A stretch of 64,000 nucleotides of DNA. Source: Candidatus Fervidifonticultor sextus. Its GTDB lineage: Bacteria > Sysuimicrobiota > Sysuimicrobiia > Sysuimicrobiales > Humicultoraceae. Position 1 is the first letter of the stretch. The number at the start of each line of letters is the position of its first letter. Position numbers: made by a program. Where the stretch lies: contig JAVKHQ010000017.1 in assembly GCA_031459875.1 (NCBI GenBank), positions 1 through 64,000 of the forward strand. Direction: 5' to 3'. Positions 1 through 3,000 of the stretch are shown here, piece after piece.

Positions 1-3000
1 GACGCCCACGTCCAGATCTTCGGTGATGGTCGTGAAACCGGGATCGAGGAAGTTGGCGTCGGCTGACCGCACGAACACCAGTGTGCCCCCTGGCTGGCTT
101 GGAGCTGGCCAGCTTGGGCGCGTCAGAATGGCCACCGCGATCACAGCCACCAGTAGGGTGAGCACCCTCACTGCCTGCATCATCGTGTCCCTCCCGTCAC
201 AGAGGTTTTTGACGCCGCGGATGCCCGCGTCGTTGCCAGATCCGTCTCTCGGCGCTCCAATTGTTCGATGAACATCCCGGCGGTCTCGCGTAGGTGCGCG
301 ACGGTCACGCTCCTGGCCCGGCGAGCGTCGCGTCGCCGGCACGCCTCCAGGATCTCTTGGTGGCGCTCCATGGAGAGGGGGATGTTGCGCTCCAGGGTGA
401 TGTACAGCCGGACGTAGCGCTCCATGTGCTGACGCAGGTGTTCGATCAACTGCACGAGCCGGTCGTAGCCTGATGCGCGGTAGATCGTCATGTGAAAGCG
501 TCGATCCGCTGGGATCCAGCGCGACGGATCGCGGGTACTCTCGCGCATTTCGTCCATCAGCGTCCGCAGCCGCCGGTCGTCATCGTCCGTCAGGCGCCGG
601 ACGCCCAGGGAGGCCGCTTCGCCCTCCAGGAGCTGACGCATCAGGAAGATCTCGCGGATCTCCTGGACCGACAGTTCGGAGACCGTCGCACCGCGGTACG
701 AGTGGGCGACCACAAGCCCCTCGGCGCTGAGTTGCCGCAACGCTTCGCGTACGGGCATCGGGCTGACCCCGAACTGCGCTGCCAGGTCCTCAATGATCAG
801 CCGAGACCCCGGCGCCAGCTGGCCCGTGACGATTCGTTCCCGCAGGTCCCGGGCGATGGACTCCTGGATCGTCAGGAATCTGGCCATCCTAGTACTGCGG
901 CACGTCAGGGATGAAACTCTTCCGTTCGCCGGCGTGAAGATCCCGGAATTCGCGTGCCACTTCCACGAGCCTGGCCGCGGCCGCTTCAACGATCTTCATG
1001 CCCTTCTGGGCCGTCGCCAGCGTGGGGTCGCCGCCGATCCCGGTCTCAGTCTGGGTACTCCGCCAGTCTGTAAACCTGACCGGTGAGGCGCCCATCAGAT
1101 CCTCCCAGAAGTACTTCGTCTGCGCCCGGATGCCTGGGACGATCCGGTCGCGTTTCACATGCTCTGGATCCAGCGCGAGGTAGACGGAGGTTTCGAATTC
1201 GCACGCATGACTGGTCCCCCCGGGGAACGGCGACTCGCGGATCGCGCTGAACTCCTCAACGATGAGCGCCCAATAGGAGACCGAGGCGACCTTGGCCGGG
1301 CTCTGCAGCGTGGCCAGGCGAGCGGCCTGCTCCAGGAGGTGGGCGTTGCTCCCGTGCCCATTGACCAGGAGCACCCGGCGGAACCCCATGCGGCCGAAGC
1401 TCTTGGCCACATCGGTACAGTAGTGGACGAAGTGGTCAGGGTCCACGGTGACGGTGCCGGGGAAGTCCATGTTGTGCTCGTTGAACCCGTAGTGGATGGG
1501 AGGCGCGCAGAGCAGCAGGTCAGGCGCGGCGGCCGCGGCCCGCTCGCAGACCGCGGTGACCGAGAGGTTGTCGGTGTCCACGGGCAGGTGGGGGCCGTGC
1601 TGCTCGATGGCCCCCACGGGGACGAGCACCACACGGCGGGCCAGGGCAGCCTCCCTGACGTCCTCCCACGTCATCTTGGCCAGAGAATGACTCATGAAGG
1701 CACATTATGATATTTGATCAGATATCGCACCTGTGACTTCGCCGCTGAGGGCGCGATTTCCTCCCGCAGTACAATTGGCGCCCATCGAGTCCGTCGAAGG
1801 CCGTCTCAAGAGGTCCGAAGGAACTGGCGAAAGGTCAGGGGAGTCACCTGAGCGGTCGCACTCACGAACCTGGTCAGCCACCAGCGGTACGTGGACAGGG
1901 TCGCCTGTGTGCACCCGGCCACCTGTTTGGTCAGCAGAAACGCCTCGACGGCATCAGAGAGGGGGTGAACGTTGGCTTTTTCGGCCCGTTTTGCAGGGGC
2001 CCAAACGGCTGAAACGCCGTCCTGATGCGGGTTGGCGCGCCCGGCGGGACTTGAACCCACGACCTTTGGCTCCGCAGGCCAACGCTCTATCCGCTGAGCT
2101 ACGGGCGCGCAAGTGCGGCGGATCACCGGCACCGGCCGGCGCAACCGCGCCCTTCATTGTAACAACTCCCAGCCGCCCCTGCCAGCGGACCGCAGCCCGG
2201 CCCAGCGAACTCGCGGGTCAAAGCTCCTCATCCCCGGCCAGTCCAGCCCGGCCCCGCGGCCGGCGGACGGGCGTCCGTCAGCCCCTGCGCTGCTGGTGGA
2301 GGTGCAGGATCTTCCCCGACGCGGTGGCCTGCGGGGCCTGCCGCTCGACCCGGAGCAGGCGTGCGTCCCGCCACAGGAGGCCCATCAGGCGCTCCGGGCC
2401 CTGCCCTGCTCCGATCGCCGCCAGGAAGGTGCGGGCCACGTCGTCCGGGTCGAGGGGCCCGACCGACGGATGCACGAGCAGGCGGAGCAGCGGGCGTCCG
2501 TCGTCGGATTCCTCCTCGACGAGCTGGTAGTCCGCCGGGCCGCCTCCGAAGCGCGCCGGCAGCAGTTCCTCCAGCACGCGCACCACGTCTGCGTCTTGGA
2601 ACGTCATGCCGCCAGCCGTGAGCTTCTCGTGGCTGTGAATCGAGTGGATGTGGGTCGTCCACCCCACGGCCTCCAGCGGGCAGCCACAGGCCCGCGGGGC
2701 GACGACCGCCTGATCGCCGAGCGAGACGTTCAGGAGCACCAGGGAGGCAGTGGGACGCAACGACGTGACGAGGAAGGCCCCGGCGGGCAGGCTGCCGTCG
2801 TGCCCTCCTGCTTCGAGCGGGACCACTGCGTGGAGGTCGTGCAGCAGGTGGAGGTCGTCCGGCGTCTCCGGCGCCAGGCAGCCGTAGCCGATGTGACCGG
2901 ATTCCACCGTCGCATAGCGCGGCATCGCCTCGGCGCCGATTCGGCGGATCACGGACAGGCGGACCGACGTCGTGGGCTCGCCCCCGAGGGTGAAGCGCGC

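What a model noticed while it worked through the whole genome (the two positions that open the first line are those of the whole stretch)
2033..2108. No TadA: tRNA-Arg(GCG) replaces the inosine tRNA-Arg(ACG) in a free-living, GC-rich bacterium
This genome has no tRNA adenosine(34) deaminase TadA and no tRNA-Arg(ACG); CGC/CGU are read by a G34 tRNA-Arg(GCG) (C9:2033-2108 and an identical copy at C33:15-90) beside tRNA-Arg(UCG). The switch is a clade trait: two families of the phylum lack TadA and carry GCG, two others keep TadA and ACG. Loss of the normally essential TadA was so far documented for genome-reduced Mollicutes.
Evidence so far: Six-frame search with NCBIfam NF008113 (TadA, cut 150 bits): in G000 only RibD matches (C12:42007-42396, 51.6 bits); over the cut in 0 of 33 other Humicultoraceae and 0 of 22 genomes of family f3, but in 23 of 23 (f4) and 12 of 12 (f5); the control rings in 12 of 14 known genomes. 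The only other small CDA-fold protein, g02411, is a dCMP deaminase by Swiss-Prot (50% to S. pombe DCTD; call 121). rna.tsv: Arg anticodons gcg (x2, Rfam 71 bits), tcg, tct, cct; no acg. ARAGORN on loci fetched with the tRNA: Humicultoraceae 21 gcg, 0 acg in 30 loci; f4 7 acg, 0 gcg in 30 loci; f3 17 gcg, 0 acg in 30 loci; f5 0 gcg among the best matches of all 12 genomes, which are ccg. CGC = 36,270 and CGU = 4,659 [...]
(Added by a program. Inside this text positions count along the whole contig: contig position 1 is position 1 of the stretch shown here. "Call 12" and the like, gene names such as g00115 and contig names such as C1 are that model's own, and its searches are not shown. The text may have been shortened before it was handed on; [...] marks where a part breaks off. 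The agent that wrote the report below was given it as the finding of a first reader that could run no searches.)

Follow-up and report, generated by a model that had tools for sequence, protein, structure and literature searches.

The report
Inosine-free arginine decoding, TadA lost
This hot-spring bacterium and its whole clade read the arginine codons CGU and CGC with an ordinary G-starting tRNA and have lost the usually essential tRNA-editing enzyme TadA, a switch already published for several other free-living bacterial groups.

Summary
Window 2033-2108 (minus strand) is a genuine tRNA-Arg(GCG). The 3.05-Mb, 70% GC genome has no tRNA-Arg(ACG) and no TadA, not even a dead copy or fragment. 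Its three deaminase-fold genes are RibD, a dCMP deaminase and a cytidine deaminase.

The trait is clade-wide in Candidatus Sysuimicrobiota. TadA is found in 0 of 58 genomes of families f1, f2, f3 and f6, and GCG in 40 of them. In f4, f5 and f7, 35 of 36 genomes have full-length TadA and one a fragment; ACG is in 30 and GCG in none. An outgroup-rooted RpoB tree makes f1+f3+f6 one clade, so one loss suffices.

The GCG gene sits beside tRNA-Ser(GCU), as the ACG gene does in 2 of 4 f5 loci examined. tRNA-Arg(UCG) already coexists with TadA in f4 and f7, so a redundant intermediate stage survives.

The novelty claim fails. Loss of inosine and TadA, or GCG replacing ACG, is published for Spirochaetes, Thermotogae and a proteobacterial class. 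Loss of such enzymes in GC-rich bacteria was explicitly predicted. Earlier notes of this scan report GCG in other phyla too. Verdict: a well-resolved new member of a known kind, of moderate interest.

The parts
2033..2108 (-). tRNA-Arg(GCG), 76 nt with encoded CCA. Anticodon loop is C-U-G-C-G-G-A, with G34, C35, G36 and G37.
   Evidence: ARAGORN; Rfam RF00005 at 71 bits; sequence read. It is 100% identical in 5 other genomes of the genus and family, and 97-99% identical across f1 and f3.
4069..4163 (-). tRNA-Ser(GCU), the conserved neighbour of the tRNA-Arg(GCG) gene.
   Evidence: ARAGORN; Rfam 56.2 bits. Ser(GCU) lies beside Arg(GCG) in G001, G039, G047, G092 and this window (5 of 5 long loci examined). 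It lies beside Arg(ACG) in f5 genomes G080 and G083.
2278..4068 (-). Open frame of up to 596 aa filling the 1.96 kb between the two tRNA genes. It is not part of the decoding system.
   Evidence: ORF list. No Pfam family at E<=0.01. 92% identical DNA in relative G004. Metagenome contigs join 2110/2111 directly to 4062/4068, probably from relatives with a short spacer.

Best explanation
The gene encodes a normal arginine tRNA whose wobble base is a genomically encoded G. In this organism the four CGN codons are read without inosine. tRNA-Arg(GCG) reads CGC by a Watson-Crick pair and CGU by a G-U wobble. tRNA-Arg(UCG) reads CGA. tRNA-Arg(CCG) reads CGG; it is present in all 8 closest relatives but is not assembled in this genome.

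Because no tRNA carries A34, the A34-to-I34 deaminase TadA has no tRNA substrate, and its gene is gone. The change happened once, in the common ancestor of families f1 (Humicultoraceae), f3 and f6 of Candidatus Sysuimicrobiota.

The likely order of events is inferred, not shown:
1. A tRNA-Arg(UCG) was already present while TadA and ACG were still in use, as in today's f4 and f7. This made I34 redundant for CGA.
2. The ACG gene in the Ser(GCU)-Arg-Arg(CCU) cluster was replaced by a G34 version.
3. tadA was lost.

In a 70% GC genome where CGC is about 41% of arginine codons and CGA about 5%, G34 costs nothing in decoding capacity.
For: SHOWN: the tRNA is real.

SHOWN: G000 has no ACG tRNA. It has no TadA by NF008113, by Pfam PF00383 (three hits, identified as RibD, a ComEB-like dCMP deaminase and Cdd), or by a phylum-specific TadA profile run without filters.

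SHOWN: the clade pattern over 94 genomes.
- TadA at 138 bits or more: f4 22 of 23 plus one fragment, f5 12 of 12, f7 1 of 1. f1 0 of 34 including G000, f3 0 of 22, f6 0 of 1, f2 0 of 1.
- ACG-type tRNA: f4 18 of 23 plus G079, f5 11 of 12, f3 0 of 22, f6 0 of 1. f1 has 1 of 34. That one is a 2.1-kb contig whose tRNA has a different acceptor stem and discriminator from the phylum's other Arg tRNAs.
- GCG-type tRNA: G000, f1 21 of 33, f3 17 of 22, f6 1 of 1, f5 0 of 12. The single f4 pattern hit is not a tRNA by ARAGORN.
- G001 (4 contigs, 97% complete) has GCG, CCG and UCG, no ACG and no TadA.

SHOWN: the RpoB tree with 9 outgroups puts f1+f3+f6 in one clade (SH-aLRT 89) inside a monophyletic phylum (98). 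The unrooted split {f4,f5,f7}|{f1,f3,f6} has support 97.

SHOWN: UCG-type tRNA is found in f4 15 of 23, f7 1 of 1, f5 0 of 12, f1 24 of 33 and f3 8 of 22.

SHOWN: the order Ser(GCU)-Arg(ACG)-Arg(CCU) in f5 genomes G080 and G083 matches Ser(GCU)-Arg(GCG)(-Arg(CCU)) in f1, f3 and f6.

SHOWN: codon shares.

ESTABLISHED KNOWLEDGE: the G34+U34 strategy without TadA is described in PMC3711424, PMC8007984 and PMC6063277.
Against: There are no RNA or modification data, so absence of inosine is inferred from genes only.

All genomes are metagenome bins. GCG was not found in 12 of 34 f1 genomes and 5 of 22 f3 genomes, including all 5 genomes of genera g9 and g11. For G021 this looks like an assembly gap: its assembled tRNA set also lacks Ser(GCU), Asn, Phe and Tyr. 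That was checked for this one genome only.

ACG was not found in 4 of 23 f4 genomes or in the single f7 genome, although they have TadA.

Synteny around tadA is not conserved between f4, f5 and G000, so no deletion scar can be shown.

The positional match of the ACG and GCG genes holds for 2 of 4 f5 loci and 0 of 4 f4 loci examined.

The proposed order of events depends on the UCG genes of f4, f7 and f1 being inherited from one ancestor, which 76-nt sequences cannot establish.

Support for the TadA-less clade is SH-aLRT 89 from a quick single-gene tree of 21 of the 94 genomes.
Confidence: 0.85

Rival explanations
1. Assembly or binning artefact. TadA and tRNA-Arg(ACG) exist in this organism but fell into the roughly 4% of the genome that is not assembled.
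For: G000 is 96.2% complete in 67 contigs. Its tRNA set is incomplete, with no tRNA-Arg(CCG) although 8 of 8 closest relatives have one. tRNA genes often sit at contig ends here.
Against: None of 58 genomes of f1, f2, f3 and f6 has TadA, against 35 of 36 full-length plus one fragment in f4, f5 and f7. G001 in 4 contigs shows the same state. GCG and ACG never co-occur in a credible way.
Confidence: 0.02
2. A divergent TadA-like deaminase still edits an A34 tRNA. The 62-93-bit 'TadA' hits in some f1 and f3 genomes would be the real enzyme.
For: Small intact HAE...PCxxC deaminases match NF008113 best among NCBIfam models. They occur in G041, G042, G043, G026, G021, G022, G023, G024 and G025.
Against: G000 has none.

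Against solved structures they score alike to TadA (85-89 bits) and to guanosine, guanine and deoxycytidine deaminases (74-87 bits). A real f4 TadA scores 164 bits to S. aureus TadA against 78 to guanine deaminase.

Read by eye from the sequences, they lack the 'DPK-GA-GS' stretch that follows the PCxxC motif in the f4, f5 and f7 TadA proteins.

G093 has a real TadA and such a paralogue side by side.

They are patchy: 1 of 8 genomes in g12 and 3 of 4 in g16. G026 and G041-G043 carry GCG and no ACG.
Confidence: 0.03
3. Origin of the gene, version A: the GCG gene is the old ACG gene, changed in place by an A34-to-G34 point mutation plus later changes in the anticodon stem. This is the Mollicutes model of Yokobori et al.
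For: It sits in the same slot beside tRNA-Ser(GCU), and beside Arg(CCU) in f3, as the ACG gene of f5 genomes G080 and G083. The acceptor stem and the D-stem bases are shared, with only D-loop differences. Precedent in PMC3711424.
Against: With position 34 excluded, each of six GCG sequences is closer to a CCG tRNA (1-5 differences to the nearest) than to any ACG tRNA (6-10 to the nearest). The f4 ACG genes are not next to Ser(GCU).
Confidence: 0.45
4. Origin of the gene, version B: the slot was overwritten by a copy of the tRNA-Arg(CCG) body through gene conversion between near-identical paralogues, and that copy then took, or already had, a C34-to-G34 change.
For: The anticodon arm of the GCG tRNA equals that of the f5 and f7 CCG tRNA except at position 34. 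In G013 the GCG and CCG genes differ at only one other base. All CGN-reading Arg tRNAs of the phylum share the first 14 bases in 26 of 27 sequences and the last 12 in 25 of 27, which gives ample homology for conversion.
Against: The isoacceptors look homogenised within genomes anyway. In G069 (f4) the ACG and CCG genes differ at only 2 positions besides base 34. Similarity may therefore reflect later concerted evolution rather than origin.
Confidence: 0.35
5. The GCG tRNA gene was acquired horizontally, for example from archaea or from another TadA-less phylum.
For: GCG is the standard archaeal solution (PMC8007984 and PMC3239186, passages read).
Against: The body is of the phylum's own type, 1-9 differences from the phylum's CCG tRNAs, and it lies in a conserved native tRNA cluster.
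Confidence: 0.03

Closest known systems
TadA-free CGN decoding in the Mycoplasma pneumoniae group and M. pulmonis (Yokobori et al. 2013, PMC3711424; abstract and passages read)
   Same: No tadA, no tRNA-Arg(ACG), and tRNA-Arg(GCG) plus tRNA-Arg(UCG) read the CGN codons. A stepwise model is proposed in which UCG is gained before ACG turns into GCG.
   Different: Those are AT-rich, parasitic genomes under 1 Mb that also lost tRNA-Arg(CCG), and in their model tadA is lost before UCG is gained. Here the genome is 3 Mb and 70% GC, from a hot-spring metagenome. CCG is kept in relatives, and UCG coexists with TadA in sister families.
Spirochaetes and Thermotogae with tRNA-Arg(GCG) instead of ACG (PMC8007984). 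Independent losses of the inosine modification in Spirochaetes and a proteobacterial class (Diwan and Agashe 2018, PMC6063277).
   Same: These are free-living or non-reduced bacteria in which the target tRNA (ACG) is absent and the non-target tRNA (GCG) is present wherever TadA is absent. The loss is attributed to relaxed selection once the tRNA pool is expanded.
   Different: They are different phyla. PMC3711424 ties the strategy to moderate or low G+C. The Sysuimicrobiota case is high-GC and resolved within one order, with TadA-bearing sister families. The supplementary species tables of PMC6063277 could not be opened, so I cannot say whether any high-GC TadA-less lineage is listed there.
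Archaeal CGN decoding
   Same: G34 tRNA-Arg(GCG) and no A34 deaminase (PMC8007984; PMC3239186).
   Different: In archaea this is taken as the ancestral state. Here it is a secondary return from the bacterial ICG system.
Earlier notes of this scan on other genomes: GCG tRNA-Arg in Limnocylindria, Omnitrophota, Patescibacteria and Microgenomatia (AI notes, unchecked)
   Same: tRNA-Arg(GCG) as a lineage trait in uncultured bacterial groups.
   Different: Two of those notes report a conserved, catalytically dead TadA that was kept. Here nothing TadA-like remains in G000.

Membership tests
tRNA (Rfam RF00005), arginine acceptor | Cloverleaf scoring above the Rfam gathering score | tested here: met
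   71 bits against a gathering score of 29; ARAGORN call.
tRNA (Rfam RF00005), arginine acceptor | Arginine identity elements A20, C35 and G36 (the elements are recalled from E. coli work, not taken from a call) | tested here: met
   Read from the sequence. The D-loop AGCGGAUA places an A at position 20, and the anticodon is GCG. Aminoacylation itself was not tested.
TadA-independent (inosine-free) CGN decoding | No tadA gene in the genome | tested here: met
   for G000. 0 of 58 genomes in f1, f2, f3 and f6.
TadA-independent (inosine-free) CGN decoding | No tRNA with A34 in the CGN box | tested here: met
   No acg in G000. ACG pattern found in 0 of 22 f3 genomes and 1 of 34 f1 genomes, the one lying on a foreign-looking 2.1-kb contig.
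TadA-independent (inosine-free) CGN decoding | A G34 tRNA for CGU/CGC and a U34 tRNA for CGA | tested here: met
   GCG on C9 and C33 and UCG on C54.
TadA-independent (inosine-free) CGN decoding | No inosine at position 34 in mature tRNA | not testable with these tools
   No RNA run holds the stretch. There are no modification data.
TadA (NCBIfam NF008113), applied to the sub-threshold deaminases of G041-43, G026 and G021-25 | Score at or above the 150-bit cut, or clear preference for TadA over other nucleoside deaminases | tested here: not met
   62-93 bits. Equal scores to TadA and to guanosine, guanine and deoxycytidine deaminase structures, against 164 versus 78 bits for a true f4 TadA.

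The most novel reading that the evidence does not exclude
One order of a free-living, GC-rich phylum still holds every stage of the escape from an essential enzyme.
- f5 has the canonical set: TadA, ACG and CCG, with no UCG.
- f4 and f7 have the redundant set: TadA plus UCG and CCG, with ACG shown in f4 only.
- f1, f3 and f6 have the finished state: GCG, UCG and CCG, with no TadA.

This would make the order of events directly testable. It is the order that the 'expanded tRNA pool relaxes selection on the modification enzyme' model of Diwan and Agashe predicts for GC-rich bacteria. The GCG gene may moreover have arisen by overwriting the ACG slot with a CCG-type body rather than by a simple A-to-G change.
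Probability: 0.5. Interest if true: 0.45.

Novelty: new member of a known kind. Interest (0 to 1): 0.35.

Why it matters
TadA is essential in E. coli and is usually treated as pan-bacterial. Each well-resolved natural loss shows how an essential gene can become dispensable through changes in the tRNA pool.

This case adds an uncultured, GC-rich phylum with TadA-bearing and TadA-free sister families in one order, so the intermediate tRNA sets can be compared directly.

There are also practical consequences. Annotation pipelines and completeness or essential-gene checklists should not expect tadA or tRNA-Arg(ACG) in Humicultoraceae and their sister families. TadA-dependent A-to-I mRNA editing cannot occur there.

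It does not change the known picture, because the phenomenon and its explanation are already in print.

Tried and rejected
1. Deletion scar. I compared genes flanking tadA in G069 and G077 (f4) and in G080 and G083 (f5) with G000. The neighbours differ between f4 and f5. In G000 they lie on different contigs or beside unrelated genes, so no syntenic gap could be shown.

2. First RpoB tree. It was wrong because my script picked antisense open frames for some minus-strand loci. I discarded it and redid the tree with the correct strand.

3. Exceptions to the pattern.
- The G067:C249 'GCG' pattern hit and the G021:C79 near-hit are not tRNAs by ARAGORN.
- G014:C263 is a real tRNA-Arg(ACG), but with a non-phylum acceptor stem and discriminator. 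It lies on a 2,116-base contig of a 69%-complete bin. I read it as probable mis-binning; this is not proven.

4. A possible further step in genera g9 and g11, with no GCG at all. BLAST and ARAGORN found only UCG, CCG, CCU and UCU there. A full Rfam tRNA scan of G021 shows an incomplete tRNA set that also lacks Ser(GCU), Asn, Phe and Tyr. I therefore reject this reading for now as an assembly gap.

5. A 56-nt tRNA-like match in G025 is a 3' fragment of tRNA-Arg(CCG), not a GCG gene.

6. Expression. No RNA holder is listed for the stretch. The laid runs are DNA contigs only.

7. Integrase impression. The short ORF just 3' of the tRNA (1806-2144) looked to me like the N-terminus of an integrase. 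Pfam gives no match at E<=0.01.

8. Literature on the phylum. The two phylum papers (PMC11604079 and PMC11962464, term searches in the main text) hold no occurrence of 'TadA' or 'deaminase'. Their only 'tRNA' mentions seen concern gene counting. Full-text searches for forms of 'tRNAArgGCG' and for 'Sysuimicrobiota' gave no paper on this trait in this phylum.

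Full report
**What is at the coordinates.**
ARAGORN finds a 76-nt tRNA-Arg with anticodon GCG at window 2033-2108 on the minus strand, and a tRNA-Ser(GCU) at 4069-4163. Rfam's tRNA model scores them at 71 and 56.2 bits. The sequence has a regular cloverleaf, an encoded CCA end and the anticodon loop C-U-G-C-G-G-A. It has an A at position 20 together with C35 and G36. I recall these as the arginine identity elements; that is not from a call. The gene is real and far beyond chance.

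**The genome.**
The window is contig C9 of a 3,053,559-base, 67-contig, 70% GC assembly rated 96.2% complete.
- Whole-genome ARAGORN lists Arg anticodons gcg (C9 and C33), tcg, tct and cct, and no acg.
- Two further 94-nt ARAGORN calls (ccg on C13, gcg on C37) get no Rfam tRNA hit even at E<=1 and are false. The UCG gene (72.7 bits) and the C33 GCG gene (71 bits) are confirmed.
- tRNA-Arg(CCG) is missing from this assembly, with not even an anticodon-arm fragment. It is present in all 8 closest relatives, G001-G008.

**No TadA in this genome.**
- A six-frame search with NF008113 finds only RibD at 51.6 bits and two weak pieces of one ORF.
- Pfam PF00383 finds three deaminase-fold genes.
- NCBIfam names them RibD (TIGR00326, 371.7 bits), a ComEB-like dCMP deaminase (119.6 bits, below that model's cut) and cytidine deaminase (NF004064, 137.8 bits).
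- Earlier notes of this scan mention catalytically dead TadA kept in other GCG-bearing lineages. I therefore built a profile from 12 TadA sequences of this phylum and ran it without filters over all 37,468 six-frame ORFs of 40 aa or more. Only RibD (57 bits) and the dCMP deaminase (39 bits) score, and everything else is at E>0.5.
- So there is no TadA, dead or alive, and no recognisable fragment.

**The clade.**
The library holds 94 species genomes of the phylum, in one order and seven families. Two of them (G016, G024) are flagged unpublished and enter only the counts below.

TadA:
- At 138 bits or more: f4 22 of 23, f5 12 of 12, f7 1 of 1.
- The remaining f4 genome, G074 (64% complete), has an 85.5-bit C-terminal fragment on a 3.9-kb contig.
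- None in f1 (0 of 34 including G000), f3 (0 of 22), f6 (0 of 1) or f2 (0 of 1, 72% complete).

tRNA patterns built on the D-arm plus anticodon loop:
- ACG: f4 18 of 23, plus G079 with a looser pattern. f5 11 of 12, f3 0 of 22, f6 0, f7 0, f2 0, f1 1 of 34.
- GCG: G000 (two loci), f1 21 of 33, f3 17 of 22, f6 1 of 1, f5 0 of 12, f4 1 of 23.

The two discordant hits dissolve on inspection:
- The f4 hit (G067) is not a tRNA by ARAGORN.
- The f1 hit (G014) is a tRNA-Arg(ACG) on a 2,116-base contig of a 69%-complete bin. Its acceptor stem, discriminator base and T-arm differ from all other Arg tRNAs of the phylum. It is probably mis-binned.

G001, assembled in 4 contigs and 97% complete, has GCG, CCG and UCG, no ACG and no TadA. 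Missing data cannot explain a 0-of-58 against 35-of-36 contrast.

**The sub-threshold deaminases.**
Nine genomes of f1 and f3 carry small intact HAE...PCxxC deaminases scoring 62-93 bits on NF008113: G041-43, G026 and G021-25.
- Against solved structures, the two tested (G042 and G026) score about the same to TadA (85-89 bits) as to guanosine, guanine and deoxycytidine deaminases (74-87 bits).
- A true f4 TadA scores 164 bits to S. aureus TadA against 78 to guanine deaminase.
- By eye, they lack the DPK-GA-GS stretch that follows the zinc motif in all f4, f5 and f7 TadA sequences printed.
- They are patchy within genera.
- One (G093, f7) sits in the same genome as a real TadA.
- G026 and G041-43 carry GCG, not ACG.
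- I read them as nucleoside or base deaminase paralogues. G000 has none.

**One loss.**
I built an RpoB tree from 21 genomes. I picked 20 by hand from the 46 genomes with an RpoB hit among 49 that are at least 93% complete, and added G093.
- It gives the split {f4,f5,f7}|{f1,f3,f6} with SH-aLRT 97.
- With nine outgroups from Bacillota, Actinomycetota, Chloroflexota and Obscuribacterales, the phylum is monophyletic (98).
- f6+(f1+f3) is a clade (89), beside f4 and f5+f7.
- A single loss in the ancestor of f1+f3+f6 therefore suffices.
- This is a quick single-gene tree and f2 is not in it.
- PMC11604079 calls Humicultoraceae a shallow-branching family (passage read), which fits a derived state.

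**How the switch may have run.**
- UCG-type tRNA-Arg is present in G000, f1 24 of 33, f3 8 of 22, f6 1 of 1, f2 1 of 1, f4 15 of 23 and f7 1 of 1. It is absent in f5, 0 of 12.
- So f5 has the canonical bacterial set (ICG+CCG). f4 has a redundant set (TadA, ACG, UCG and CCG). f7 likewise has TadA with UCG and CCG, but no ACG gene was found there. f1, f3 and f6 have the inosine-free set.
- The GCG gene lies beside tRNA-Ser(GCU) in all 5 long loci examined (G000, G001, G039, G047, G092). In f3 it often also lies beside tRNA-Arg(CCU).
- In f5 genomes G080 and G083 the order is Ser(GCU)-Arg(ACG)-Arg(CCU). The other two f5 loci and all four f4 loci show no Ser(GCU) within 4 kb.
- The GCG gene thus occupies the ACG slot, at least relative to part of f5.
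- Its body, however, is nearer to CCG tRNAs. With base 34 excluded, the nearest CCG is 1-5 differences away and the nearest ACG 6-10, for each of six GCG sequences.
- Its anticodon arm equals that of the f5 and f7 CCG tRNA except at base 34.
- Arg isoacceptors here are nearly identical to one another within genomes. In G069 the ACG and CCG genes differ at two positions besides base 34. I therefore cannot decide between an A34G change in place and overwriting by a CCG-type copy.

**Codon use.**
Codon use fits the new set. On 1,649 likely coding frames (63% of the genome), CGC is 41.2%, CGG 40.6%, CGU 5.4%, CGA 4.6%, AGG 6.8% and AGA 1.2% of arginine codons.

**What is known.**
- PMC6063277 surveyed 1,093 bacteria and places TadA at the bacterial root. 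It reports several independent losses of the inosine modification, including Spirochaetes and a proteobacterial class.
- It finds that loss of the target tRNA and presence of the non-target tRNA go with loss of inosine.
- PMC3711424 gives the stepwise Mollicutes model and lists Borrelia, Campylobacter, Helicobacter, Treponema and Thermotoga as users of the G34+U34 strategy.
- Earlier notes of this scan report GCG tRNA-Arg in four other uncultured lineages (unchecked AI notes).
- Neither phylum paper mentions TadA or deaminases, and my full-text searches found no report of the trait for this phylum.
- I could not open the supplementary species tables of PMC6063277. Whether a high-GC TadA-less lineage is already tabulated there stays open.

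**Limits.**
- There are no RNA or modification data. No RNA run holds the stretch.
- All genomes are bins, and 17-35% of genomes per family lack the expected CGY-reading tRNA.
- For G021 (98% complete) the full tRNA scan shows that Ser(GCU), Asn, Phe and Tyr tRNAs are also unassembled. The gap is technical there.
- Synteny around tadA gave no deletion scar.

**Verdict.**
It is a clean, phylogenetically well-bracketed new instance of a published phenomenon, not a first.

Noticed in passing
window 1-2122 and G000 contig C33:1-760: The tRNA-Arg(GCG) has two alternative 3' flanks. C33:1-90 equals C9:2122-2033, and then the two diverge. In relative G004 the C9 upstream gene and the C33 downstream flank lie around one tRNA. 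In run X1 the contigs left of the tRNA have about half the depth of those on the right (a weak hint only). The C9 flank (GntR/FCD regulator at 180-989, creatininase at 889-1695) may be an insertion at the tRNA or a strain variant. The 'second tRNA copy' may then be the same locus.
   Followed up: partly
window 2278-4068 (-): An open frame of up to 596 aa fills the space between tRNA-Ser(GCU) and tRNA-Arg(GCG). It has no Pfam family at E<=0.01 and is conserved at 92% DNA identity in G004. Other relatives have only 60-850 bp between the two tRNAs. Metagenome contigs join the two tRNAs directly.
   Followed up: partly
L141 (G025:C12:2002-2057): A 56-nt 3' fragment of tRNA-Arg(CCG) lies about 10.5 kb from the intact CCG gene on the same contig. 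This looks like the far end of an element integrated into that tRNA.
   Followed up: no
L079 (G022:C94) and L080 (G023:C283): The TadA-like deaminase paralogues of genera g9 and g10 carry an N-terminal stretch with paired arginines followed by a hydrophobic run. It looks like an export signal (judged by eye, not tested). That would be odd for a nucleoside deaminase.
   Followed up: no
G080:C1:169913-176650: In f5 genome G080, tadA lies only about 6 kb from its substrate gene tRNA-Arg(ACG) and the Ser(GCU)-Arg(ACG)-Arg(CCU) cluster. In G091 they are 86 kb apart.
   Followed up: no
all Arg tRNA genes of the phylum (alignment): In the alignment, 26 of 27 tRNA-Arg sequences of the four CGN-reading isoacceptors, across six families, share the first 14 bases. 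25 of 27 share the last 12, and 25 of 27 have both. The exceptions are the CCG gene of G092 and the foreign-looking G014 ACG. This suggests concerted evolution among paralogous tRNA genes.
   Followed up: partly
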